A stretch of 64,000 nt of DNA from a virus (lineage: Duplodnaviria; Caudoviricetes), in IMG/VR virus record IMGVR_UViG_3300022602_000025; one strand, written 5' to 3'. Of this stretch, positions 27,433-42,287 are shown in pieces. Every line of letters begins with the position of its first letter. Position 1 is the first letter of the stretch. A program made the position numbers and the translations under genes. Under the pieces are notes generated by a model, which did not search any database, was not told the origin of the DNA, and saw nothing but the letters and a program-made list of their open reading frames with translations.

Positions 27433-29712
27433 ATGTTAGAACCAAATAGCGATTTAGAAGCTGTATTTGATCGTGCTGTTAAAATTGCCGCAAAAAACAA
27501 ACACGAGTATATTACGTTAGAACACTTCTTATACAGTTTAATCATTGATTCAAAATTTGAACAGTTGCTGGGCGACTTTGGTGCAGATCTTGAATCTCTT
27601 AAAACTAACCTAGAAACATATATTGCAACAAAGCTAACTGAAATTGTTGTAGAAGATTTAAATCAGCGTCCTAAGAAAACACACTCAATGGAACGTATGT
27701 TAAATCGTGCGTTTACACAAGTGTTGTTTAGCGGTCGTTCAACTATCAGTCCTGTTGATTGCTTCATCAGTATGTTTGCTGAAAAGAAAAGTCATGCCGC
27801 ACATTTTATGCGTCAGGCAAAAATTGACAAAGATGCGTTCATTGACTATATTGGACAAGAAAAGACATCTTCAGAAAATCTTCCAGAAGATGTAAATTCT
27901 ACCCAACTTGAACGTATGTTGGTTCAATTCTGTACTAACCTTAATAACAAAGTTAAGCAGAAGAAAATTGATCCAGTTATTGGTCGTGAAAAAGAAATTG
28001 AAGAAATGCAATTGGTTCTTGCACGTAGAAACAAATGCAACGTCATGATGATTGGCGATCCTGGTGTAGGTAAGACAGCGATTGCTGAAGGTCTTGCACG
28101 TAACATCGTTGAAGGCAAGGTTCCTAAATTTATTGCTGACCATACCGTGTACGCATTAGATATCTCAGCTATGCTTGCTGGCAGTAAGTATCGCGGAGAT
28201 TTTGAAGAACGCTTGAAGATGGTTATCAACGCTCTTGAAAAGAAAAAGAATTGCATCTTGTTTATTGACGAAGCACACATGATTAACGGTGCAGGTGCTG
28301 TAAGCGGTAGTTCAAACGATATGGCTAATATGCTGAAACCTGCACTAGGCAAAGGCACTATTAAAGTTGTTGCGTCGACTACATGGGACGAATATCGTAA
28401 GCACTTTGAAAAGGATCGTGCATTGATGCGCCGTTTCCAACGTGTTGTGATTGACGAGCCAAGCGAAGCAACAGCTATTAAGATCCTTAAAGGTCTTAAG
28501 AAGTATTACGAAAAACATCATAATGTTAAGATCACTAATCAAGCGATCATTGATGCTGTCAAATATAGTATCAAGTATATGCCAGATAAGCACTTACCAG
28601 ACAAAGCTATTGATTTGATTGATTGTGCATCTGCTCGTTTTAAAGTACGTGACGAGGAAGGTGGCATTGTTGATCATGATGAAATCGTTTTTGAAGTATC
28701 TAAGATCGCAAATCTTCCAACAGAACAAGTTGCATCAAAAGAAAATAAAAACCTGCGTGACCTTGATAAGAACATGCGTGGTAAAGTGTTTGGCCAAGAA
28801 AAAGCGATTGATATTTTGTTAGACAAAATTTATATCGCACAAGCAGGATTAAAATCTATCAACAAGCCAGTTGGAAACTTCTTGTTCGTAGGTCCTACGG
28901 GCTGTGGTAAGACTGAGACAGCAAAAGTATTGGCAGAATCAATGGGAGTACAACTTGTACGATTTGATATGAGTGAGTTCCAAGAACAACACTCTGTTGC
29001 CAAGTTCATTGGTGCTCCTCCGGGCTATGTTGGCTTTGAGGATAATGCAGGTCAACTTGTTACTAAACTACAAGAACACCCAAACTGTATCTTGTTATTA
29101 GACGAAATTGAAAAAGCACATCCAAGTGTAAGCAACGTATTGTTAGGATTGATGGACAATGGCTTTGTAACAGGATCTAATGGTAAGAAAGCAGATGCTC
29201 GTAACGCTATCGTTATCCTAACTTCAAACTTAGGTGCAAGTGATGCTGAAAAGAACGGTATTGGATTTGGTAGCATTGATAAAGACGGCGAAATTAACAA
29301 TGCTGTTAATTCGTTCTTCAAACCAGAGTTCCGCAATCGTTTAGACGGTGTTATCCAGTTTGGTAAATTAGATCATGTTGTAATGATTAGGATCGTTAAG
29401 AAATTCGTTGACGAACTTAATGTGCAGATCAAAGATAAGAATGTGTTTGTTAAACCAGATACAGACGCTGTTGAATTGCTAATCAAGAAAGGCTTTAACA
29501 AGAAGATGGGTGCTCGTCCATTAGCTCGTGCTATTGATGAACATATCAAGAAACCGTTAAGTAAAGAAATTCTATTTGGAAGGTTAGTCAACGGCGGAGT
29601 TGTTGAAATCACTGCCGAGGACGATAAATTTAGTTTCAAGTTTGCTGACATATTGCCAGTTGAAAAAGCTAACATCGAAGAAGTTGAAGATGAAAGTTTA
29701 TCAAACGAATAA
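27433..29712 (+). CDS. clpA: ClpA-like Hsp100 ATPase
   Basis: HEYITLEH N-domain, two AAA modules (GDPGVGKT, GPTGCGKT) and an IGF ClpP-binding loop. Confidence 0.92.
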   Translation: MLEPNSDLEAVFDRAVKIAAKNKHEYITLEHFLYSLIIDSKFEQLLGDFGADLESLKTNLETYIATKLTEIVVEDLNQRPKKTHSMERMLNRAFTQVLFSGRSTISPVDCFISMFAEKKSHAAHFMRQAKIDKDAFIDYIGQEKTSSENLPEDVNSTQLERMLVQFCTNLNNKVKQKKIDPVIGREKEIEEMQLVLARRNKCNVMMIGDPGVGKTAIAEGLARNIVEGKVPKFIADHTVYALDISAMLAGSKYRGDFEERLKMVINALEKKKNCILFIDEAHMINGAGAVSGSSNDMANMLKPALGKGTIKVVASTTWDEYRKHFEKDRALMRRFQRVVIDEPSEATAIKILKGLKKYYEKHHNVKITNQAIIDAVKYSIKYMPDKHLPDKAIDLIDCASARFKVRDEEGGIVDHDEIVFEVSKIANLPTEQVASKENKNLRDLDKNMRGKVFGQEKAIDILLDKIYIAQAGLKSINKPVGNFLFVGPTGCGKTETAKVLAESMGVQLVRFDMSEFQEQHSVAKFIGAPPGYVGFEDNAGQLVTKLQEHPNCILLLDEIEKAHPSVSNVLLGLMDNGFVTGSNGKKADARNAIVILTSNLGASDAEKNGIGFGSIDKDGEINNAVNSFFKPEFRNRLDGVIQFGKLDHVVMIRIVKKFVDELNVQIKDKNVFVKPDTDAVELLIKKGFNKKMGARPLARAIDEHIKKPLSKEILFGRLVNGGVVEITAEDDKFSFKFADILPVEKANIEEVEDESLSNE

Positions 29713-30892: not shown

Positions 30893-31291
30893 ATGAAACT
30901 ATACGAATTTTTTGGCAAAATTGATCGAAGTGTTAATCCAGAGGATAAAGATAAAGATCCTTCTACATTAAATCAAGAAGAAGAACAGCATCTTGCAGAT
31001 GACCTTTTTTGGTTTATAATCGATCACGATGATCTACATAAACAGCACTTTATGCCTAAGGCTAAAGAGCTTAAGGCTGCACACAGCGCAGACAAATCCG
31101 ATAGTACTAAAGATTGGAAACACTGGCTACCAATGGTTAAGGAAGGCTGTATTAGGTACTTTGAACAACATCATGTACCTGGTGATCCTAAAGAAACATT
31201 TAATCAAGAATTTATGAAAACGTTATGCAGACGTTGTGCAGAACACTATCATAAAGATATCATTAAAGGCGAATATAAGTTAGGCCACTAA
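30893..31291 (+). CDS. hypothetical, putative internal head protein
   Basis: MKLYEFF leader; TAAATA at 30856-30861. Confidence 0.6.
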   Translation: MKLYEFFGKIDRSVNPEDKDKDPSTLNQEEEQHLADDLFWFIIDHDDLHKQHFMPKAKELKAAHSADKSDSTKDWKHWLPMVKEGCIRYFEQHHVPGDPKETFNQEFMKTLCRRCAEHYHKDIIKGEYKLGH

Positions 31292-31292
31292 T

Positions 31293-34200
31293 ATGCTTTT
31301 GAATAGTTTATTCCAACCTAAAGAACAAATTAATGAAGCCATCACTGTTGATGAATTCAAAGATATATTAAAGAAGTTCTTGCCCCTTGCTAAAAAGATA
31401 ATTGGTCTAGAAAAACTTCCCACTATCGTTCTTAAAAAAACACTAGCACACGGCGATCAACCAACTATGGGTCGTTTTTATAACGACACTTATACTTTAG
31501 AACTAGCAGTTGCTAATCGTCAACCTGTTGATGCACTGAGAACATTAGCTCACGAGCTAACACATGCCCTACAAGATAGCGAGCATATCGAAATCAGTCC
31601 AGAAACAGGTAGCCCAGAAGAAAACAAAGCGAATGAAATGGCTGGTATTGTTATGCGCCACTTCAATAAGCAATACCCAGAATACTTAAAATACCAATCC
31701 ATTATGGAAGGTGGTAATTTAGAAGTACCTGATGTTGATCAACCAGGTCAATCTCATCAAGCAGATACTATAGAATTAAAAGTACACAACCGTAGTTTCA
31801 TGGTCGGTGTATTAAACAAGTTACTACAAGACATCAATGCGTCTTTCCAAGCACAGTATAATCAACCATTATGGAGTCCTCAGCTGATAAAAGCTGGTAC
31901 ATTCCTAAGTGGTAGCTCATTACACTTCTTCAATGTTAAAGGCATTCCAGACGAACAGTTTGTTGCTAAGAAACCTAAAGTAGGTGACATTGATACACAA
32001 TGCGATAAAGAATTAGAACCACAAGTACAGCAATACTTAACATCTATTGTTGGCAAACAAGTAGGTACAGCCAAGTTCTTAGGATTCAAACCAGGTAATA
32101 ATCAGTTCTCTGGACTGTTCCAACTACAAGATCCACCTGTTAAAGTACAGATTGACTTTGAGTTTGGTCGTTATGATCCTAAGACTAATGCTCCAGACGA
32201 GTGGTATTCATACAGTCATAGTTCAGACTGGTCGGACGTTGAAGCAGGTGTTAAGGGTGTATTCCACAAATACATAGACCGTGCATTACCATACGCTAAG
32301 ACTAGTGAAAAATACGTTGCTCGTGTACTTAAGAAGAGTACAAAGATTAGCGATCAGCCTGTTGTAGATGCTGATTATAGTTTTGCTGTAGCAGGTGGTC
32401 AAGGTGGTGGTGTAAGTGCCAAGTATAAGCCTTATATCGATCCTACAACAGGTGAGCCAATGATGAAAGATGGCATTCCTGTTATGCAGGAGCTACCTCC
32501 TAACCAAAGAGATTACATACAAAATCTAGCACAACAGTTTGAGATCTACTTTGATCGTAAACCAAAAGGCAATGACCTTGAATTACTAAACAGTTTCCAA
32601 GGTACTATACAATTAGCAAACAAATATCTTGATGATCAACAACGTCAAGAAGTTGCTAATCGTTTCTTAGACATTTGTTTTGAGCCGGGCTCACAGATGA
32701 TTACTAAAAACGATCCTGCAAGTGATCGTGAAGCAAAGTTCGCAGCTATTGATCTTATGGTTGAAAGACTAAAGATGACTGATCCTCAAGGATTTAGAAA
32801 ACACGCTGTTGAAATGAGCAAAGCATATGAAGATGCTTTTAGAGTTAAAAAACAACCAATGGCAGAATCTATTTTAAACGAAGCAGATCCTGAACAACCA
32901 CAAGTTAAAGCACAACTACGTAAAGGCATGCCGCATTTACGTGATTTAAAGTCAGCAGACTTTTTAGATTTATTAGATGAACTACATCAAGGTAATGGTA
33001 AGTTTGAATTAAAGAATATTCCACTTAATGTTAAAGTAGACGGCTTTGGTGGACGCTTTGGTAAAAATGCAGAAGGCAAACCTTTCATGGGTACTAGCCG
33101 CACAGAGCCGCGCTATGAAGCAAGTTTTGTAAAATATCATCAACAAAAAGGAACCACTGATCCAGATATACTAGGTCGTGCTCAAATGTTTGATGACTTG
33201 TTTAATGAAATGATGGATGCTATTAAATTAGTAGATAGCAAACTAGGTAAAGATTTCTTAATCAACAAACAAGTAACTTGCGAAGTATTATATCTTCCAT
33301 TCGCTACAGAAACTCCAGAAGGCAAATTAAAGTTTGTTGGCATACACTATGACAAACTACCAGATGGTGTGCAACTAGCCCTAGTTCCTTTCCGTGTAGT
33401 AGAAGGCGACACAGGCGAAGATCTACCTGATTCAGATAAGTTTATTAAACAATTAACTAAAGTAGGTAAAGCAGGTAGTGTAATGTTTATTGACAACAGC
33501 CTAACACAGAATGAAGCGTTAGATGTTACAGCACTTGTACCTCCTATGGAAAACATAGCACAGTTTAAGGCTATGTTAGCAAGCAAGAAACGTGATCAAG
33601 CCGCAGAAGTTAAGGCCGCACTTGAGCCAGTTAAACTTGCTCTTGAAAAAGCAATCATTGAAGATCCAAATATTGTTGGTAAAGATTTATTAGGTAAGAA
33701 TTACGAAGGTATTGTTATTAACAGTCGCCTTGGTCCTATTAAAGTTACTAGTCAAGAACAACGTGATGTTATACAGGCTAAGAAAGATGCTATGGCTAAT
33801 GCTCGTACAGAACGTCCACGCGGTGAATCGAAGACCGCTGTAGTTGCTATTGGTAGTTTTGTTGGCCATAAAGGTCACGAAGAACTGTTTAACTATACAA
33901 TTAACAAAGCAAAACAATTAGGTGGTGATCCTTATTTGTTTATTGGTAATGCTGTAGGTAAAAATGATCCAATTCCTCCAGCTACTAAAGTAGAAACATG
34001 GCACAAGATGTATCCTGAATATGCCGATAACATCAGCACAGTTCAAGAAGGTGGTACACTACTACAAAAGATCAAACACGAATTAATCAATCCGTTACCA
34101 GGCAAACCTCCACGTTACGATAATATTGTTATTATGGTAGGTGAGGATCAAAAAGATATGCCTATCGCTGGCGCACTGATGAAAGCTGTTAACAAGTTCC

Positions 34201-35558
34201 CAGGATATGAACATGTTAATGTTAAATTAGAAGCGACACCGCGTGGCACCGGAATGAGCTTTACTAAGTTGCGTAATATTTTAAAAGATGTTAATGCGAC
34301 TCCAGAAGAACAATTAAAAGTTTGGGAACAAGGGTTCGATGTTAAAAAATTAGGTGCTGAATGGATTAAGCATCTAATGGATTTAACACGTAAAGGAATG
34401 GGCCTAGGTGAACCACACACTAGTCCAAGCGGAGTAAAAACAAATATGCCAAAGAATGACGATGACTATGCAATTAATTACGGTCCTAAAGGTCTTGCTA
34501 AACCAAAACCAGGTCGTGTTTTAAATGCACTAGTAGCACCTAAAGAACCGCAAGCAGAAAGCGTAGATGGTGGTACAGCAGAAATTAAAAAAGAGCCAGT
34601 AGGTGGCGGTAGTTATGTATCAATGAGTCACATGCCTTGGGAAGCGATTGGACCTAATCCACACGATCCTGATCCAATGAATCCGATGATCCATCATAAA
34701 TCAAATCCTGCTGCATTAAAAGATCGTATGTTAAGAGCAAGCGGACAGTTAAAAGATCTAGCGACTCGAGCACAAACAGCAAGTCCAATGGAATGGCAAA
34801 GCATCACTCGTCATTTTAAAGAACTACAAATGAACATTGACGAGATTGAACACGCACTAGCAGAGTTAGCCAAACAAAGACGTAGAGGCGGTGTTCGTAG
34901 TCGTGGCATTGATAAAAACATTGACGAAAAAATGTTGCCAGCTAGTGCATTTGCTGGTAGCAAGAAAAACAAGTTAGGTACAGCAGGTCAACTACGCAAT
35001 CAAAAGCGTGGCGCTCGTGCAGGTGACCTAGTCGGTGGCTCTGCAGAAAGTGTAGAAACAGAATGTGCAGGAGTCGGTACTGTTACAGCACAGAATACAA
35101 CTGTTGATGTTAAGCCAAATACATTAAACAAAGAATTGAAAGCATTTTTCCCTAAACAGAAAAAAGCAAAAACAGAAGCCGCCAATGCTGCACAACAGGC
35201 TGCTATCGCTATCGCTAAAAAGAAAGAAAAAGGTGTTGACGAAGATCAGCGACTAGATCCTAAATGTTGGAAAGGTTATCGCAAGCAAGGCACCAAAATG
35301 AAAGGTGGGACAAGAGTTAATAATTGTGTTAAAATAGGTGAAGCGTGGGAAGATGAGATTTCCAATGCTGTTAGCAAATTACTTGAAAACTTTGCAGATG
35401 GTAAAAATCCTGGACGTAAAGGTTTGGCAAAACGTAGTGGTGTTAATACCAAAGCAAGTGTTAGTGATTTAAGAAAGACAGCTAAACATAGCACAGGCGA
35501 AAAGGCTCGCATGGCACATTGGTTAGCTAATATGAAAGCAGGCAAGGCAAAGAAATGA
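31293..35558 (+). CDS. 1421-aa multidomain polyprotein: HExxH peptidase + Pol-beta-type nucleotidyltransferase + KxDG ligase-like domain + HxGH nucleotidyltransferase + basic peptide modules
   Basis: Motifs HELTH...ENKANEMAG; SGSS..GDID..VQID; VKVDG..EGIV..IKV; GHKGH..SFTKLR. Confidence 0.7.
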   Translation: MLLNSLFQPKEQINEAITVDEFKDILKKFLPLAKKIIGLEKLPTIVLKKTLAHGDQPTMGRFYNDTYTLELAVANRQPVDALRTLAHELTHALQDSEHIEISPETGSPEENKANEMAGIVMRHFNKQYPEYLKYQSIMEGGNLEVPDVDQPGQSHQADTIELKVHNRSFMVGVLNKLLQDINASFQAQYNQPLWSPQLIKAGTFLSGSSLHFFNVKGIPDEQFVAKKPKVGDIDTQCDKELEPQVQQYLTSIVGKQVGTAKFLGFKPGNNQFSGLFQLQDPPVKVQIDFEFGRYDPKTNAPDEWYSYSHSSDWSDVEAGVKGVFHKYIDRALPYAKTSEKYVARVLKKSTKISDQPVVDADYSFAVAGGQGGGVSAKYKPYIDPTTGEPMMKDGIPVMQELPPNQRDYIQNLAQQFEIYFDRKPKGNDLELLNSFQGTIQLANKYLDDQQRQEVANRFLDICFEPGSQMITKNDPASDREAKFAAIDLMVERLKMTDPQGFRKHAVEMSKAYEDAFRVKKQPMAESILNEADPEQPQVKAQLRKGMPHLRDLKSADFLDLLDELHQGNGKFELKNIPLNVKVDGFGGRFGKNAEGKPFMGTSRTEPRYEASFVKYHQQKGTTDPDILGRAQMFDDLFNEMMDAIKLVDSKLGKDFLINKQVTCEVLYLPFATETPEGKLKFVGIHYDKLPDGVQLALVPFRVVEGDTGEDLPDSDKFIKQLTKVGKAGSVMFIDNSLTQNEALDVTALVPPMENIAQFKAMLASKKRDQAAEVKAALEPVKLALEKAIIEDPNIVGKDLLGKNYEGIVINSRLGPIKVTSQEQRDVIQAKKDAMANARTERPRGESKTAVVAIGSFVGHKGHEELFNYTINKAKQLGGDPYLFIGNAVGKNDPIPPATKVETWHKMYPEYADNISTVQEGGTLLQKIKHELINPLPGKPPRYDNIVIMVGEDQKDMPIAGALMKAVNKFPGYEHVNVKLEATPRGTGMSFTKLRNILKDVNATPEEQLKVWEQGFDVKKLGAEWIKHLMDLTRKGMGLGEPHTSPSGVKTNMPKNDDDYAINYGPKGLAKPKPGRVLNALVAPKEPQAESVDGGTAEIKKEPVGGGSYVSMSHMPWEAIGPNPHDPDPMNPMIHHKSNPAALKDRMLRASGQLKDLATRAQTASPMEWQSITRHFKELQMNIDEIEHALAELAKQRRRGGVRSRGIDKNIDEKMLPASAFAGSKKNKLGTAGQLRNQKRGARAGDLVGGSAESVETECAGVGTVTAQNTTVDVKPNTLNKELKAFFPKQKKAKTEAANAAQQAAIAIAKKKEKGVDEDQRLDPKCWKGYRKQGTKMKGGTRVNNCVKIGEAWEDEISNAVSKLLENFADGKNPGRKGLAKRSGVNTKASVSDLRKTAKHSTGEKARMAHWLANMKAGKAKK

Positions 35559-35926
35559 GAGCGAGTGAATTTATAACTGAATCAGCTGCTTGGCAAAAAT
35601 CTAGCGGTAAGAATAAGAACGGCGGCTTAAACAAAAAAGGTGTCGCTAGTTATCGCAGAGAACATCCAGGTAGCCATTTACAAACAGCCGTAACTACTAA
35701 ACCTAGTAAGTTAAAGAAAGGTAGCAAGGCCAGCAAGCGCCGTAAGAGCTTTTGTGCTCGTATGAAAGGTATGAAGAAACACCGCACTGGAGCAAAAACT
35801 AAACGAGATCCAAATAGCCGTATTAATAAATCTCTGCGTAAATGGAACTGTGAAAGTATTGAACAAATGCAACAAATGATCATTGAAGGTGAACAAATGA
35901 TCAATAAGTTAAAACAAATTTTATGA
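35555..35926 (+). CDS. highly basic putative internal protein (DUF6321-like)
   Basis: MRASEFITE leader; K/R-rich with RRKSFCARM and SLRKWNC; family name from memory. Confidence 0.6.
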   Translation: MRASEFITESAAWQKSSGKNKNGGLNKKGVASYRREHPGSHLQTAVTTKPSKLKKGSKASKRRKSFCARMKGMKKHRTGAKTKRDPNSRINKSLRKWNCESIEQMQQMIIEGEQMINKLKQIL

Positions 35927-36243
35927 AACAATACTATATAACATCTGATCATCTTCCGCAGGATAGCGATAATGACGCATATCTTGCACCAGACGATCCT
36001 ATACACGAGCTAAAGGTAGTGCAATACCTAGCAGGGCTTGGTGGTGAAGCACGATTACAGGAATATCGCGCCAAAACCGCACAGCACAACAAGGAAATAA
36101 ATAAAGGTAGTAATGTTTCAACAACAGCGGCTGAAAAAGTTCAGCTGATGAAAGATAATAATATTAAACCAGGATCTCCTGAATATATTAAACTATGGTT
36201 TAGTAAACCATTTTTAACTGGCGAAAAGCCTGTGGGAAAGTAA
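35923..36243 (+). CDS. hypothetical protein
   Basis: Coupled ORF within the late cluster. Confidence 0.6.
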   Translation: MKQYYITSDHLPQDSDNDAYLAPDDPIHELKVVQYLAGLGGEARLQEYRAKTAQHNKEINKGSNVSTTAAEKVQLMKDNNIKPGSPEYIKLWFSKPFLTGEKPVGK

Positions 36244-36636
36244 ATGAGAGCTAGAGAATTCATAAGTGAAAAAGTAAACAAGATTCCTGCGAATCAGCAA
36301 TCTGCTACTCCTGGCATGCGTAGTCATCCAAATCTAGATAACTCTAGTCCATATCACCCATGGCGTTTTTCCGCACACTTTTTAGCTGGCGCAAATGGTG
36401 TCGACGATTATGAACACCAACCAGACCGTGATGGTCCTGCAGGTCAAGCGTTAGTTACAGTTGCATATTCAAAAGGCGATGCTGCTATTATTGATCAAGC
36501 TGAAAAAGCATTCGGCAAAGAAGCAAGGCATACAAAATTATCTCCTCCTGGTTCTAGTGAGGAAAGCGATGTAGGTACAACTAGTCCAGTAGCAAACTGG
36601 ATGAAACCAACGAAAGAAAAGAAAAGTAAAAAATGA
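36244..36636 (+). CDS. hypothetical, putative internal protein
   Basis: MRAREFISE leader. Confidence 0.6.
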   Translation: MRAREFISEKVNKIPANQQSATPGMRSHPNLDNSSPYHPWRFSAHFLAGANGVDDYEHQPDRDGPAGQALVTVAYSKGDAAIIDQAEKAFGKEARHTKLSPPGSSEESDVGTTSPVANWMKPTKEKKSKK

Positions 36637-37751
36637 GTAAACCAGAAGTATACTTAGACCTAGACGGAGTAGTAGCAGACTTTTTTACAGAGTATGCTAA
36701 ACTTGCCGGCGTTGAAAACGGCAACTACAGAGATATCCCCCCAGCAAAAACAGATCCTACACTAGACAAAATGGTAGGTACTGATTTCTTTAATCGTCTG
36801 CCTAAGTGTCCTAACGCTGATCAACTAGTACACATGATCGTAAAACTATACGGAAAATATCATGTGTGCTCAAGTCCCCTACGTGGCGATCATGAAAACT
36901 CAGAAAAATGGAAAAAGGTTTGGATTCAACGTGAATTGAAACCAGGTCCTGTTGATGTAATCATTACACCAAACAAAGCCAAATATGCAAAACAAGCAGA
37001 TGGTACACCTAACATCTTAATTGATGATAGAGGTAGTAATATCTCTGCTTGGGAAGCCGCAGGTGGTATTGGTATTAAGTATCAGGCAGATGAAGATAGT
37101 CTAAGTAAAGTAGTAGACGGATTTACTCGCGCTCGCAAGATTCTTAAAGGTGAAGAAGAACATAAACCACAACAATTAAAAAGCAAAGATCGTAGCTCAG
37201 GAAAACTAATTGCCAAGAGCGGCGACAGCGATGAAGAACCTAGTTCAGCAGCAGATGTACAAGAGAACGATGAGATAAATCCTCGTTTCCAATCTAGACC
37301 AATGATGGCTAAAGAAACTACAAGATATACTGGATCTGGAATACATCCAAAACTAGTCGATGTACTAAAACAAAGAGGTTATAAAGGACCATATCAGCTC
37401 GGTAAATTAAAAAAATGGTTTGTTCATCTTAAAGATGATGTCGGTGCAGAAGCCGATGATGAAATTATGGTTACAGGCAATGACGTCGAGTACGATGAAT
37501 GGGTTTTGAAACCAAAATACGGAATGTATGCGTTTGGTTCAGAAGGCGGATACATGGAAGGTGACGCTAATAAAGTTATCAAAAATACCGCACCATTAGG
37601 CGAGTCAGCAAGCAGTGGAGCTAGCGGAGTAAGCGGAGGAGCGTCTAATTCAGGAACTGGCCCTTACGGTAACGGTTTTGCATTTGGTGGTCCTGGGGCG
37701 GAATCAGTTAGTTCCAAAAAAAAGAAAAAGCCAAAACTTATTAAGAGATAA
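36633..37751 (+). CDS. HAD-family 5'(3')-nucleotidase-like phosphatase with C-terminal extensions
   Basis: YLDLDGVVADF, SSPL and ILIDD motifs; low-complexity and extra domain after aa ~170. Confidence 0.8.
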   Translation: MSKPEVYLDLDGVVADFFTEYAKLAGVENGNYRDIPPAKTDPTLDKMVGTDFFNRLPKCPNADQLVHMIVKLYGKYHVCSSPLRGDHENSEKWKKVWIQRELKPGPVDVIITPNKAKYAKQADGTPNILIDDRGSNISAWEAAGGIGIKYQADEDSLSKVVDGFTRARKILKGEEEHKPQQLKSKDRSSGKLIAKSGDSDEEPSSAADVQENDEINPRFQSRPMMAKETTRYTGSGIHPKLVDVLKQRGYKGPYQLGKLKKWFVHLKDDVGAEADDEIMVTGNDVEYDEWVLKPKYGMYAFGSEGGYMEGDANKVIKNTAPLGESASSGASGVSGGASNSGTGPYGNGFAFGGPGAESVSSKKKKKPKLIKR

Positions 37752-37753
37752 TC

Positions 37754-38398
37754 ATGAACGAAGCTAAAAAAGATCGTAAACGTCCAATATATACAATTAA
37801 ACCTCGTACAGGACACGCACCTACACAAACAGGTGCAGGTGCTCACAAGGATAAAAAGAAAGCTGATAAACAAGGCGATGTAAAGCATAAGAAAAAAGAC
37901 TATGCTGAAGGTCTTGAAGAATTATTATCTAAAATAGTTAAAGAAAATCGCGACATGAATGATCGCGAAGTCAATGGTAACATTATGCCTGCAGAAGGTA
38001 TGGACGAACCAGAAGGCGAAACTCTTAAAAATAGCCTACATACAATTATCCGTGTGGCAACACATCTAGACAAAAGGTTAGATGTTAATGACGATTTCCC
38101 AGAATGGGTAAGCGAAAAGATGGGTGCTATTAAAGGTATGATGGTTAGTGTTATGGATTACTTAATAAGTGATCAAGAAATGTCACAGGACCCAGATGCG
38201 ATGGAAGGTTACGGTTTCGGTGATACACCAAAGCCACAACAAAAGAATACTAAAAATACTTTTACTAAAAAAGTACCACACGGCGGACTACCTGAATCAA
38301 AAGGATGGACACACGATAGTCTAGCAGATAGACTATTTGAACATGAACGCACTTATGAAGAAAAGTTAGCGAACATGCTTAGAAAAATATCAAAGTAA
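37754..38398 (+). CDS. hypothetical modular protein
   Basis: Basic peptide, then acidic helical modules separated by Glu sites. Confidence 0.55.
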   Translation: MNEAKKDRKRPIYTIKPRTGHAPTQTGAGAHKDKKKADKQGDVKHKKKDYAEGLEELLSKIVKENRDMNDREVNGNIMPAEGMDEPEGETLKNSLHTIIRVATHLDKRLDVNDDFPEWVSEKMGAIKGMMVSVMDYLISDQEMSQDPDAMEGYGFGDTPKPQQKNTKNTFTKKVPHGGLPESKGWTHDSLADRLFEHERTYEEKLANMLRKISK

Positions 38399-38901
38399 TG
38401 CACATTTTTGAAGTTGTTTCCTCGGACTACGAAATCCGTAACTATCATAAGTTAGATCGTATCCTTACCAAACTATGTGAAATGGTTGTCGAAGGTAAGA
38501 AAAGCGATAAAGATTATGGTATGGTTGCTGCAGCCGTTTTAGATCCAGATAACAATATAGTAGCCGGACTTAACTATCCTGGTGAAGATGGTAAACGCAT
38601 ACATGCAGAACATGCTGCGATTGAAGCGTATCATAAAGAGTACGGCGACATTCCAGAAGGCAGTATCATCCTAACTACACTAAGTCCATGTAATACTCAT
38701 ATGGATGAGCGTGATGGACCACCATGCGCCGATCTTATTGAACAAGCAGGCGTACTCAAAGTTTATTGCGGTTACATGGACCCTTCTCAAAACCATGGCA
38801 GTAAGGATCACAGACATTTTAATTTGATGGAAACTGAAAATCTCCAAATTAGAGAACTGTGCCAATCTTTCGCTGATACATTCCTAAAAGATTCAAAATA
38901 A
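38398..38901 (+). CDS. zinc-dependent deaminase (RibD/CMP-dCMP deaminase fold)
   Basis: HAE...TTLSPC...PPCADLIEQAGV..VYCGYMDP. Confidence 0.85.
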   Translation: MHIFEVVSSDYEIRNYHKLDRILTKLCEMVVEGKKSDKDYGMVAAAVLDPDNNIVAGLNYPGEDGKRIHAEHAAIEAYHKEYGDIPEGSIILTTLSPCNTHMDERDGPPCADLIEQAGVLKVYCGYMDPSQNHGSKDHRHFNLMETENLQIRELCQSFADTFLKDSK

Positions 38902-39617: not shown

Positions 39618-42287
39618 ATGAGTTATGTAGATGCCATCTGGAACCGCGATGATGACGTGGTTCGTGTTGTAGAACGTGACCCTAAGAAAGGTCGCATATT
39701 CCAAGAATTCCCCGCACGTTATACTTTCTATTACCCAGACCAACGAGGTAAGTACACATCAATTTATGGTGAGCAACTTTCCAAAGTTACCTGCAAGAAT
39801 TGGAAAGAGTTTATCAAAGAACAAAAGATTCATAGCGGTCACAAGTTATATGAGTCGGACATCAATGCTGTTTTCCGTACACTAGAAGAAAACTATCTAA
39901 ACAAAGATGCTCCAAAACTAAACGTAGCCTTTTTCGATATTGAGGTGGACTTTGATCCAGAGCGTGGATATGCAAGTCCAGAAGATGCGTTCATGCCAAT
40001 TACAGCGATCGCTGTAAAACTACAATGGTTAGATACTATGGTATGTTTGGCACTTCCACCAAAGACTTTAACAATGGCACAGGCCACAGAACTTGTTAAA
40101 GATTTTCCTAATACACATTTGTTTGAAACTGAAGCAGAACTGTTAGAAACATTCTTACAGTTGATCGATGACGCAGATGTTATTAGTGGTTGGAACTCAG
40201 AGGGCTTTGATATCCCGTACACCGTTAATCGTGTAACTAAGGTTCTCTCTAAAGAAGATACTAGACGTTTTTGTTTATGGGATCAATTTCCTAAGAAACG
40301 TGAATACGAAAAGTTTGGTAAGAACGCTGTTACTTACGATTTAGTAGGTCGTGTACACTTAGATAGTCTTGAACTGTATCGCAAGTATACCTATGAAGAA
40401 AGACACAGTTATCGTTTGGATGCTATCGCAGAATATGAATTAGGTCAACGCAAGACACAATATGAAGGTACACTAGATCAGTTATACAACAATGACTTTA
40501 AAAAGTTTATTGAATATAACATCAATGACTGTCAACTTCTTGATGATCTAGATAAGAAATTAAAATTTATTGATCTAGCAAACACACTGGCTCATGAATG
40601 TACAGTATTGCTACAAACAACGATGGGTGCTGTTGCGGTAACTGAGCAGGCTATTATTAATGAAGCCCATAGTAAAGGCTTTATTGTTCCAAGTCGTCCA
40701 CGCAGAGATGACACCGCAGATAACCAAGCGGCTGGTGCGTATGTTGCGTCTCCTAAGAAAGGATTACATGACTGGATTGGTTCAATGGATATTAATTCAC
40801 TGTATCCATCAGCGATTCGTGCCCTTAACATGGGTCCAGAAACTATCGTTGGTCAGTTACGTCCAGATTATACCAAAGAAGAAATTGAAGCCAAGATGGC
40901 TAAAGGTGCCAGCTTCGCAGCTGCTTGGGAAGGTAAGTTCGGAACTAATGAATACGAATTTGTGATGAACAAAGACATTAGTCATGACATTATTGTTGAT
41001 TGGGAAGATGGATCAACTGATGTGTTAAGTGGTGCCCAGATCAATGATGTAATATTTGAAAGTAATCAACCTTGGATGTTATCGGCCAACGGTACAATTT
41101 TCACTTATGAAAAAGAAGGTATTATTCCTGGTTTACTAAAACGTTGGTATGCTGAACGTAAAGAAATGCAGGCCAAATTAAAAGAAGCAATTAAAGCGGA
41201 GAATAAAATTGAAGAAGAATATTGGGATAAGCGACAGCTTGTTAAGAAAATTAATCTTAACAGTCTATACGGTGCTATTCTTAACCCTGGTTGTAGGTTC
41301 TTTGATAAGCGTATTGGCCAATCCACAACTCTTACAGGGCGCAGAATTGCTCGCCATATGGCCGCAAAAGTAAATGAGTATGTAGCAGGTGAATACGACT
41401 ATATTGGTAAGAGCATTATCTATGGTGACACTGACTCTGTATATTTCAGTGCGTGGCCTGTACTAAAGAATGATATCCAAAAAGGACTCATTCCTTGGAA
41501 TAAAGATACTGTTATCCAACTGTATGATCAAATTAGCGATGAAGTAAATGCTACATTCCCTCAGTTCATGTTAGATAGTTTCCACTGTCCAAAGACACGT
41601 GGCGAAGTTATCAAAGCAGGTCGTGAGATTGTTGCTATCAAAGGCTTGTTCATTACTAAGAAACGTTATGCTGTTCTTTATTACGATAAAGAAGGCAAGC
41701 GCCAGGACGTAGAAGGTAAGCCAGGTAAGATCAAAGCTATGGGCTTAGATTTGAAACGTTCAGATACTCCAGAATTTATGCAGAACTTTTTAAGTGAAAT
41801 CTTAGAAAAGGTTTTGAACGGTAGCCAAGAAGAAGAAATTCTAGATCGTATTAGTGAGTTCCGCACTGAATTTAAATCTCGACCAGGTTGGGAAAAAGGT
41901 TCACCAAAACGTGCTAACAACATCACTGACTACGAAGCCAAAGAAAAGAAATTTGGCAAAGCTAACATGCCTGGACATGTTCGTGCAAGTATCAATTGGA
42001 ATACCTTGAAACGTATGCACGGCGACAAATACAGCCAACAGATTGTTGACGGTATGAAAGTTATCGTATGTAAGGTAAAAGACAATCCTTTAGGTTATAC
42101 CAGCGTTGCGTATCCAGTAGACGAAATGCGTTTACCTAAATGGTTCCAGGAATTACCATTTGATCATTCTGAAATGGAAACAACTATTATTAACAATAAG
42201 TTGGAAAACCTAATCGGAGTGCTTGAGTGGGATTTGGAATCAACTACACAAGAAAATACTTTTGGTAGTTTATTCAGTTTCGAGTAA
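39618..42287 (+). CDS. family B DNA polymerase (gp43-like)
   Basis: Exo DIEVD, DINSLYPS, KINLNSLYG, YGDTDS and KKRY motifs. Confidence 0.97.
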   Translation: MSYVDAIWNRDDDVVRVVERDPKKGRIFQEFPARYTFYYPDQRGKYTSIYGEQLSKVTCKNWKEFIKEQKIHSGHKLYESDINAVFRTLEENYLNKDAPKLNVAFFDIEVDFDPERGYASPEDAFMPITAIAVKLQWLDTMVCLALPPKTLTMAQATELVKDFPNTHLFETEAELLETFLQLIDDADVISGWNSEGFDIPYTVNRVTKVLSKEDTRRFCLWDQFPKKREYEKFGKNAVTYDLVGRVHLDSLELYRKYTYEERHSYRLDAIAEYELGQRKTQYEGTLDQLYNNDFKKFIEYNINDCQLLDDLDKKLKFIDLANTLAHECTVLLQTTMGAVAVTEQAIINEAHSKGFIVPSRPRRDDTADNQAAGAYVASPKKGLHDWIGSMDINSLYPSAIRALNMGPETIVGQLRPDYTKEEIEAKMAKGASFAAAWEGKFGTNEYEFVMNKDISHDIIVDWEDGSTDVLSGAQINDVIFESNQPWMLSANGTIFTYEKEGIIPGLLKRWYAERKEMQAKLKEAIKAENKIEEEYWDKRQLVKKINLNSLYGAILNPGCRFFDKRIGQSTTLTGRRIARHMAAKVNEYVAGEYDYIGKSIIYGDTDSVYFSAWPVLKNDIQKGLIPWNKDTVIQLYDQISDEVNATFPQFMLDSFHCPKTRGEVIKAGREIVAIKGLFITKKRYAVLYYDKEGKRQDVEGKPGKIKAMGLDLKRSDTPEFMQNFLSEILEKVLNGSQEEEILDRISEFRTEFKSRPGWEKGSPKRANNITDYEAKEKKFGKANMPGHVRASINWNTLKRMHGDKYSQQIVDGMKVIVCKVKDNPLGYTSVAYPVDEMRLPKWFQELPFDHSEMETTIINNKLENLIGVLEWDLESTTQENTFGSLFSFE

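What the first reader, a model, noticed from the sequence alone, without database searches (positions are those of the whole stretch)
34400..35926. String of short basic peptide modules delimited by Glu sites
Seen: after the enzymes the polyprotein breaks into 20-80 aa units: IDE|KMLPASAFAGSKKNKLG..., KTE|AANAAQQAAIAIAKKK, VDE|DQRLDPKCWKGYRKQGTKMKGGTRVNNCVK, LLE|NFADGKNPGRKGLAKRSG.... The next ORF is a very K/R-rich protein with paired Cys. Inference: these are released as small DNA-condensing or effector peptides, like a viral polyprotein hormone precursor. Single units could be anti-defence or ribosome/RNAP-binding peptides that are gained and lost as cassettes.
Basis: partly seen in the sequence, partly recalled or inferred. 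Interest (0 to 1): 0.6.

Follow-up and report, generated by a model that had tools for sequence, protein, structure and literature searches.

The report
Shuffled basic head-cargo modules, Glu-jointed
The tail of a 1421-residue protein of a freshwater giant phage, together with the next small gene, is a string of small, positively charged mini-domains that many phages carry in different orders, each starting right after the motif that the T4-type head protease cuts, so they are probably loaded into the capsid and cut apart there, though no cut has been measured.

Summary
Residues 1213-1421 of the ORF at 31293-35558, plus the ORF at 35555-35926 (Pfam DUF6321), form six small basic units of 22-90 aa (pI 8.5-11.8).

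- **Shuffling:** the units recur in over 3,000 protein clusters, in more than 40 orders.
- **Glu junctions:** the Glu sites are not chance. Glu directly precedes unit M5 in 199/199 unique junctions, M3 in 41/42, M1b in 22/23 and DUF6321 in 134/178. A hydrophobic residue usually lies two positions before it.
- **Leader:** free-standing copies in large phages begin with a leader like the T4 capsid-targeting sequence.
- **Natural control:** phages of 39-68 kb, which lack the T4-type (S77) head protease where complete, carry bare DUF6321 with no leader and no Glu.
- **Relatives:** a close relative (DNA polymerase 83% identical) has the protease and a different module set.
- **Virions:** two cyanophage homologue families (T4-GC119, T4-GC190) were detected in S-SM1 virions.

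The best reading is a polyprotein version of T4 internal proteins. Cleavage, packaging and DNA binding are all untested, and this phage's own protease gene could not be checked.

This scan has reported the same system before on other DNA, in freshwater jumbo phages and marine cyanophages.

The parts
31293..35558 (+). 1421-aa multi-domain ORF (P0001). It has an HExxH peptidase-like N-terminus, two uncharacterised PHROG domains and a cytidylyltransferase-like HxGH domain, followed by the basic tail.
34413..34928 (+). Residues 1041-1212: a Pro/Gly-rich linker plus a conserved helical segment. It ends in IDE (34920-34928), the first putative cut site.
34929..35057 (+). Unit M1b (residues 1213-1255, pI 10.5). 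Glu precedes it in 22/23 unique junctions.
35064..35177 (+). Unit M2 (residues 1258-1295, pI 9.7). It has few homologues. It ends in KTE (35169-35177).
35178..35243 (+). Unit M3 (residues 1296-1317), a single Ala/Gln-rich helix. Glu precedes it in 41/42 junctions. It ends in VDE (35235-35243), inside a low-confidence linker of the model.
35244..35387 (+). Unit M4 (residues 1318-1365): a beta-hairpin flanked by two conserved Cys, plus a helix. It is also present in marine cyanomyoviruses. It ends in LLE (35379-35387).
35388..35555 (+). Unit M5 (residues 1366-1421, pI 11.2), three short helices. Glu precedes it in 199/199 junctions, with a hydrophobic residue at P3 in 166/199. It was not found in 50,697 cultured-phage records.
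35555..35581 (+). Nine-residue leader of the 123-aa ORF (MRASEFITE). It resembles the T4 capsid-targeting sequence, ends in ITE, and is disordered in the model.
35582..35851 (+). Unit M6 = DUF6321 (PF19846, 65.5 bits). It has pI 11.8, 36 invariant positions and two invariant Cys.
35852..35923 (+). Acidic C-terminal helix of the 123-aa ORF (pI 4.5). It contains IIE. In relatives it acts as a spacer before the next unit.
36244..36636 (+). Neighbouring 130-aa ORF with the same kind of leader (MRAREFISE). It is conserved, with its leader, in the close relative G002.

Best explanation
The basic tail of the 1421-aa protein and the following DUF6321 gene are passengers of a T4-style head-cargo system. 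A short N-terminal leader of the T4 capsid-targeting type brings a precursor into the assembling prohead. The S77 (gp21-type) prohead protease then cuts after Glu in hydrophobic-x-Glu motifs. This removes the leader and separates the chained units, and probably the enzyme domains too. The released 2-10 kDa basic mini-proteins stay with the packaged DNA and enter the next host with it. Chaining lets units that have no leader of their own ride behind one that has. Shown here: the modular anatomy, the shuffling, the conserved Glu junctions, the leader, its link with large genomes that carry the protease, and literature detection of homologues in virions. Inferred: packaging and cutting in this phage, and any DNA-binding or host-directed role.
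For: - **Shuffling.** The units occur in 3,060 clusters and in more than 40 orders among 271 proteins.
- **Glu junctions.** Glu at P1: M5 199/199, M3 41/42, M1b 22/23, M6 134/178. Hydrophobic P3: M5 166/199, M6 130/178. P2 varies and the sequence further upstream is unrelated. Background is 6.6% Glu and 2.1% for the triplet.
- **Leader.** 67-69 of 157 module ORFs start with the T4-like leader, against 55-75 of 1,850 other ORFs. Some leaders nearly match the T4 sequence MKTYQEFIAE.
- **Natural control.** Bare DUF6321, with no leader and no Glu, occurs in contigs with a CheckV-estimated genome size of 39-68 kb. Leader or fused forms occur at 110-401 kb, with no overlap (p = 8e-9).
- **Protease.** S77 is absent from 5/5 complete small phages and 2/2 complete IMG/VR records of the bare class. 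It is present in 3/3 cyanomyoviruses and in 3 of 5 large IMG/VR records searched (the complete 352-kb one included; the two without a match are 29-32% fragments).
- **Close relative.** G002 (polymerase 83% identical, syntenic) has S77. It carries DUF6321 inside the polyprotein behind a Glu, rather than as a separate gene with a leader.
- **Virions.** T4-GC119, which in S-SM1 contains M4 and DUF6321, and T4-GC190, which starts with a T4-like leader, were both detected in S-SM1 virions (PMC3037559 Table S8).
- **T4 precedent.** T4 internal proteins are highly basic and lose their leader to gp21. T4 Alt is cut at ITE-6 and LTE-619 (PMC8442874, PMC5694885).
- **Structure.** The models show separate small folded units. 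Two junctions lie in low-confidence stretches: the leader (mean pLDDT 55) and the M3-M4 linker holding VDE (pLDDT under 50); the M4-M5 junction LLE lies at the end of a predicted helix.
Against: - No cut or virion peptide has been measured for any of these units.
- The genome of this phage is not held, so its own S77 gene could not be checked.
- The big ORF starts with only a degenerate leader.
- About half of the non-bare module ORFs lack a recognisable leader.
- The cyanophage T4-GC119 proteins have no canonical leader.
- P3 is weakly hydrophobic at M1b and at this window's KTE site, and the M4 junction is loosely placed (58/91).
- A Glu that travels with a module could instead be part of its fold.
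- Bare DUF6321 in pelagiphages lies among early or replication genes, so the domain has a function that does not need a capsid.
Confidence: 0.6

Rival explanations
1. Uncleaved nucleic-acid anchor. The basic units stay attached to the enzymes and tether them to DNA or RNA, either in the cell or in the capsid. On this reading the hydrophobic-x-Glu is only the structural N-terminal edge of each mini-domain.
For: The units sit at the C-terminus of many different enzymes: deaminase, HAD phosphatase, ParB nuclease and nucleotidyltransferase. Their strong positive charge fits nucleic-acid binding. The Glu moves together with the module, as a fold element would.
Against: The same P3/P1 pattern recurs in front of at least five unrelated units and also in front of enzyme domains. 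Bare DUF6321 in protease-less phages lacks the Glu entirely, so the fold does not need it. Stand-alone copies carry a T4-like removable leader that ends in the same motif.
Confidence: 0.2
2. Cytoplasmic small effectors that are not packaged. On this reading the shared N-terminus is a translation-start or stability signal of late genes, and the units act inside the infected cell.
For: Small phages express bare DUF6321 from early or replication regions. No expression or virion data exist for this phage.
Against: The leader matches the experimentally defined T4 capsid-targeting sequence. It heads T4-GC190, a protein detected in S-SM1 virions. It occurs only in large genomes of the kind that carry S77.
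Confidence: 0.1
3. Chance: a lysine-rich, low-complexity tail in which Glu triplets fall at random.
For: The total number of hydrophobic-x-Glu triplets in the protein is at expectation.
Against: Each unit is conserved at 60-95% identity across thousands of proteins, with invariant junction Glu. The units are predicted to fold.
Confidence: 0.01

Closest known systems
Phage T4 internal proteins IPI, IPII, IPIII and Alt, with the capsid-targeting sequence and gp21 processing
   Same: Both have a short N-terminal leader ending in hydrophobic-x-Glu, a basic cargo and a Glu-specific S77 head protease in the lineage. Cargo genes are hypervariable and exchangeable (PMC3012670, PMC8442874, PMC5694885).
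   Different: T4 internal proteins are single proteins cut once. Here several unrelated mini-domains and enzymes are chained behind one leader with a junction motif before each. The units are extremely conserved rather than hypervariable. Nothing has been shown biochemically.
T4 core proteins gp22, gp67 and gp68, which gp21 cuts into short fragments
   Same: One precursor is cut at many Glu sites into small pieces inside the prohead (PMC5694885).
   Different: Those are scaffold proteins whose fragments mostly leave the head. The units here are basic, folded, conserved modules that look like retained cargo.
Cyanomyovirus virion proteins T4-GC119 and T4-GC190 (Sullivan et al. 2010, PMC3037559)
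   Same: T4-GC119 of S-SM1 contains M4 and DUF6321. T4-GC190 is the cytidylyltransferase-like family also present inside the 1421-aa ORF, and it starts with a T4-like leader. Both were detected in S-SM1 virions.
   Different: In cyanophages these are separate genes next to g16, or elsewhere in the genome. Here enzyme and modules are fused in one ORF beside the replication genes. M5 is absent from cultured phages.
Head proteins of giant phages phiKZ, 201phi2-1 and SPN3US, processed at (A/S/G)-x-Glu
   Same: These are giant phages with a gp21-related protease that trims many head and ejection proteins after Glu, sometimes at several sites (PMC5694885).
   Different: They use a different protease family (S80), a different P3 preference and different cargo. 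They have no shared shuffling mini-domain repertoire.
Polyvalent proteins of phages and conjugative elements (Iyer et al. 2017, PMC5512222)
   Same: Both are large phage proteins that join several enzymatic domains, often with a zincin-like peptidase, and are thought to be delivered with the DNA.
   Different: That paper does not mention these units, cyanophages or Cys-pair basic modules. The processing proposed here is by the head protease, not by an in-built peptidase.

Membership tests
Pfam DUF6321 (PF19846) | Match to the family HMM above the curated cut-off | tested here: met
   The ORF 35555-35926 scores 65.5 bits against a cut-off of 28.5, E 6.9e-18, over residues 18-97.
T4-type capsid-targeted internal proteins | N-terminal leader of about 10 residues resembling the T4 capsid-targeting sequence and ending in hydrophobic-x-Glu | tested here: met
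   This is met for the ORFs at 35555 and 36244, compared with the T4 leader quoted in PMC8442874. The 1421-aa ORF has only a degenerate version.
T4-type capsid-targeted internal proteins | The phage encodes a gp21-type (Peptidase S77) prohead protease | tested here: inconclusive
   This phage's genome is not held. S77 is present in the close relative G002 (polymerase 83% identical), in G001 and G004, and in 3/3 cyanomyoviruses.
T4-type capsid-targeted internal proteins | The protein is found inside the virion or prohead | not testable with these tools
   Only homologue families have been detected: T4-GC119 and T4-GC190 in S-SM1 virions (PMC3037559 Table S8).
T4-type capsid-targeted internal proteins | The leader or junction is cut after Glu during head maturation | not testable with these tools
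   No proteomic data are available. The only support is sequence conservation of the junction.
T4-type capsid-targeted internal proteins | Basic protein associated with packaged DNA | tested here: inconclusive
   The units are basic (pI 8.5-11.8). DNA binding was not tested. No known DNA-binding fold was found.
Polyvalent proteins (Iyer et al. 2017) | Several effector or enzyme domains in one phage polypeptide, often with a zincin-like peptidase | tested here: inconclusive
   There is an HExxH region with only weak Pfam hits (E 0.003-0.05), plus PHROG domains and a cytidylyltransferase-like domain. None of the paper's signature domains was tested, and the paper does not mention these modules.

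The most novel reading that the evidence does not exclude
Large aquatic T4-related phages, both freshwater jumbo phages and marine cyanomyoviruses, share a common pool of very highly conserved basic mini-proteins. These are delivered on a 'one leader, many passengers' principle: chained into polyproteins, loaded into the head, cut apart at Glu junctions and injected. DUF6321 has 36 invariant positions, which would mean that at least some units bind a conserved target in the host or on the DNA rather than acting as plain counter-ions. On this reading the same domains, expressed bare by small phages, are general host-takeover or genome-protection factors.
Probability: 0.25. Interest if true: 0.75.

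Novelty: new variant of a known kind. Interest (0 to 1): 0.55.

Why it matters
If the reading holds, sequence alone (leader plus Glu junctions) would predict which proteins uncultured giant phages and abundant ocean cyanophages pack into the capsid and inject. It would also define a family of small, very highly conserved basic proteins of unknown function that are among the commonest phage modules in lakes and oceans. Finally, it would extend the T4 internal-protein idea from single proteins to shuffled polyproteins that combine enzymes with mini-domains.

Tried and rejected
- **Pfam on the tail.** Scanning the tail in pieces gave no family.
- **PADLOC.** No match.
- **PDB by profile.** The DUF6321 alignment found nothing up to E = 10.
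- **Fold searches.** DUF6321 model: no Foldseek PDB match with E <= 0.001 (single row at E 9.7), best VIA Z 4.1. Tail model: best VIA Z 2.9. These are not meaningful. BFVD returned only other DUF6321 proteins.
- **ESM Atlas.** Only unnamed viral clusters, score 0.81 or lower.
- **Window's own genome.** No genome is held. The phage's own protease could therefore not be sought.
- **Whole 1421-aa protein in relatives.** Only pieces match in G002 and nothing matches in G001 or G004, so the fusion architecture is not conserved.
- **M5 in cultured phages.** No match in 50,697 records.
- **Literature.** No paper holds 'DUF6321' or six junction or module motifs. The polyvalent-protein paper does not mention these units.
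- **Count of triplets.** The simple count of hydrophobic-x-Glu triplets as evidence was rejected, because it is at chance.
- **Protease in short contigs.** S77 in 50 IMG/VR contigs was uninformative because the records are 2-44% complete, except for two complete bare-class records.
- **Expression.** No RNA holder is listed among the sequencing runs.
- **Late promoter.** Only a TAAATA-like word lies upstream of 30893, and no canonical T4 late promoter lies near the ORFs. Timing of expression was not established.
Full report
**What is there.** The window comes from an uncultured freshwater giant phage of the T4 kind. It has a T4-type DNA polymerase at 39618-42287 and a ClpA-like ATPase at 27433-29712. 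Its DNA is held by lake-water metagenomes. The finding covers two things: the C-terminal quarter of a 1421-aa ORF (31293-35558) and the next ORF of 123 aa (35555-35926), which overlaps the first by ATGA.

The sites are IDE 1210-1212, KTE 1293-1295, VDE 1315-1317 and LLE 1363-1365. The enzyme part of the protein has pI 6.3. The tail has 21% K+R. The six units I delimit have pI 8.5-11.8 and sizes of 22-90 aa. The 123-aa protein is Pfam DUF6321 (65.5 bits) and has two Cys.

**Are the units real modules?** A full HMMER search with residues 1181-1421 found 3,060 clusters at E <= 0.001. Hits often cover only one unit, in proteins of 74 to 1,313 aa. A word-based search with the DUF6321 protein found more than 7,900 longer proteins. 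In these the domain, at 75-95% identity, is joined to a deaminase, a ParB nuclease, DUF5661, a HAD phosphatase or an M78 peptidase.

I mapped six unit queries onto the 271 fetched proteins and found more than 40 different orders. Examples are M5 alone (95 proteins), M6-M5 (28), M6-M4-M3-M5 (20), M1-M4 (14) and M4-M6 (10), as well as M5-M4 and M5-M1. The units do shuffle.

AlphaFold models agree with this picture:
- DUF6321 is a small helical domain (mean pLDDT 82) with a disordered leader.
- M3 is a single helix.
- M4 is a hairpin flanked by two Cys, plus a helix.
- M5 is three short helices.
- A linker of pLDDT below 50 contains VDE.

**Are the Glu sites more than chance?** The raw number of hydrophobic-x-Glu triplets in the protein (22) is what its composition predicts (about 24), so the count means nothing. 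The positions do.

| Unit | Glu at P1 (unique junctions) | Hydrophobic residue at P3 |
|---|---|---|
| M5 | 199/199 | 166/199 |
| M3 | 41/42 | 30/42 |
| M1b | 22/23 | 9/23 |
| DUF6321 (M6) | 134/178 | 130/178 |

P2 is variable and everything further upstream is unrelated. The background in the same proteins is 6.6% Glu and 2.1% for the triplet. The M4 junction is looser, with Glu two or three residues before the conserved core in 58/91. The same pattern also precedes enzyme domains. One P3/P1 signature in front of at least five unrelated folds is hard to explain as a structural feature of any single fold.

**The leader.** When DUF6321 or M5 stands at the start of a protein in a large phage, it is preceded by eight to ten residues of the form M-[KR]-x-x-E-[FIL]-[ILV]-x-E. 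Here that is MRASEFITE, and the ORF at 36244 starts MRAREFISE. Some relatives read MKTYQFITE or similar. The T4 capsid-targeting sequence is MKTYQEFIAE. It loads the highly basic internal proteins into the prohead and is then cut off by gp21 (PMC8442874). T4 Alt is cut at ITE-6 and LTE-619 (PMC5694885).

In 160 IMG/VR loci, 67-69 of 157 module-bearing ORFs start with such a leader, against 55-75 of 1,850 other ORFs. The control set includes spurious ORFs. It also includes other likely cargo, among them cytidylyltransferase-like proteins with the leader.

**A natural control.** DUF6321 genes fall into two classes.
- **Bare genes.** These start directly at the domain and stop directly after it. 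They occur in the pelagiphages Greip, HTVC035P and HTVC203P, in the T7-like Prochlorococcus phage P-SCSP1d and in Planktothrix phage Pra-JY27. None of these five complete genomes has the S77 protease, and neither do two complete IMG/VR records of this class.
- **Leader-bearing or fused genes.** These always have the Glu junction. They occur in cyanomyoviruses (S77 in 3/3) and in large IMG/VR records. S77 is present in the 352-kb complete record, the 230-kb record and the 114-kb record. The two negatives are 29-32% fragments.

Genome sizes estimated from CheckV completeness do not overlap: 39-68 kb for the bare class (n = 16) and 110-401 kb for the other (n = 39), p = 8e-9. The domain therefore does not need the Glu or the leader to fold. 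They appear in the genome class in which the T4-type head protease is found.

**Close relative and population data.** The IMG/VR record G002 has a DNA polymerase 83% identical to this phage's, a ClpA-like protein 71% identical, and the same gene order. It encodes S77. In the syntenic place its cargo is built differently.
- The domain that follows IME|GGN inside our polyprotein is a separate ORF in G002, behind a leader that ends LIE|GGN.
- DUF6321 lies inside a 983-aa polyprotein behind a Glu. It is followed by the acidic helix, another Cys module and M4.
- M1b, M2, M3 and M5 are absent.

This is cassette turnover between near relatives. It also shows that leader and internal junction are interchangeable.

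I laid contigs of four freshwater metagenomes on 31000-37000. Identical pieces of this phage were present. Summed depth was highest over 35020-36024 (in three of the four runs the DUF6321 bin is the top bin or nearly so). Contigs diverge at 35174 (M3 starts at 35178), at 35539-35548 (M5 ends at 35555) and at 35853-35870 (DUF6321 ends at 35851). Other phages in the same waters therefore share only the modules. The joints in that output have short sides and are weak evidence.

**Experimental anchor.** Sullivan et al. 2010 (PMC3037559, Table S8) detected two relevant proteins in purified S-SM1 virions: T4-GC119 (13 peptide counts) and the cytidylyltransferase-like T4-GC190 (25 counts). The T4-GC119 gene is 276-2985 bp long in 15 of 16 cyanophages.

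I checked that the S-SM1 T4-GC119 protein contains M4 (E 5e-10) and DUF6321 (E 2e-25). I also checked that S-SM1 T4-GC190 starts MKKFSAFLNE, which is a T4-like leader. The 1421-aa ORF here contains a domain of that same cytidylyltransferase-like family. This shows that homologues are virion proteins. It does not show which peptides were seen, or whether they were cut.

**Mechanism proposed.** A leader brings the precursor into the prohead core. The S77 protease removes the leader and cuts the hydrophobic-x-Glu junctions. The small basic units stay with the DNA and are injected with it.

The steps that are shown are anatomy, shuffling, junction conservation, the leader, its co-occurrence with the protease across genome classes, and homologues in virions. 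The steps that are inferred are loading and cutting in this phage, retention in the head, and function.

T4 internal proteins contact DNA phosphates through lysines (PMC3012670), so a counter-ion or DNA-coating role is the simplest guess. However, DUF6321 has 36 invariant positions, and small phages express it bare among early genes. Both points hint at a more specific, conserved partner. No known fold or family gave a lead.

**Weak points.**
- This phage's own protease could not be checked.
- The big ORF has only a degenerate leader.
- Roughly half of the non-bare module ORFs have no recognisable leader.
- Cyanophage T4-GC119 has none.
- P3 is not hydrophobic at this window's KTE site.

The main rival is that the units are uncut nucleic-acid anchors on enzymes. 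I give it about 0.2.

**Novelty.** The principle, T4 capsid targeting plus gp21 processing, is textbook. DUF6321 is a named Pfam family and T4-GC119 is a listed virion protein. I found no paper that describes the chained, shuffled mini-domain form or the junction rule. This scan has already reported the same system on other DNA, in freshwater jumbo phages and marine cyanophages. For the scan, therefore, this is a further instance. It adds the bare-versus-leader control, the virion link through the T4-GC190 leader, and a close-relative comparison.

Noticed in passing
window 31293-34412: The enzyme part of the 1421-aa ORF joins four regions: an HExxH peptidase-like region (about residues 60-115), a PHROG 19290 domain (137-498), a PHROG 12709 domain (547-743) and an HxGH cytidylyltransferase-like domain (830-1055). 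The last belongs to the family detected in S-SM1 virions as T4-GC190. In the close relative G002 these domains are split over other ORFs, and the domain boundary at IME|GGN is kept.
   Followed up: partly
L014:3658-6609 (IMG/VR record G002): The syntenic 983-aa polyprotein carries a further small Cys-pair module between DUF6321 and M4. This window lacks it, so it is another member of the shuffling repertoire.
   Followed up: no
L090:1351-1769 (Prochlorococcus phage P-SCSP1d): In this T7-like podovirus, a bare DUF6321 gene and a second 58-aa very basic gene lie between the major capsid and tail-tube genes. Small basic proteins may therefore be virion-linked there too, without a T4-type protease.
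   Followed up: no
window 35923-36243 and 36244-36636: Two small ORFs downstream are conserved in order in G002. The second keeps its T4-like leader in both phages. Neither matches any Pfam, PHROG or PADLOC family.
   Followed up: partly
window 36633-37751 and 38398-38901: The HAD nucleotidase and the RibD-like deaminase next to the finding are stand-alone here. In other phages the same enzyme families are fused to DUF6321 (for example hits carrying PF00383 or a HAD domain).
   Followed up: partly
window 35264-35356: The M4 core is 75-83% identical at the DNA level to marine Synechococcus phage genes over 70-90 bases. That is unusually high for phages that share almost no other DNA.
   Followed up: no
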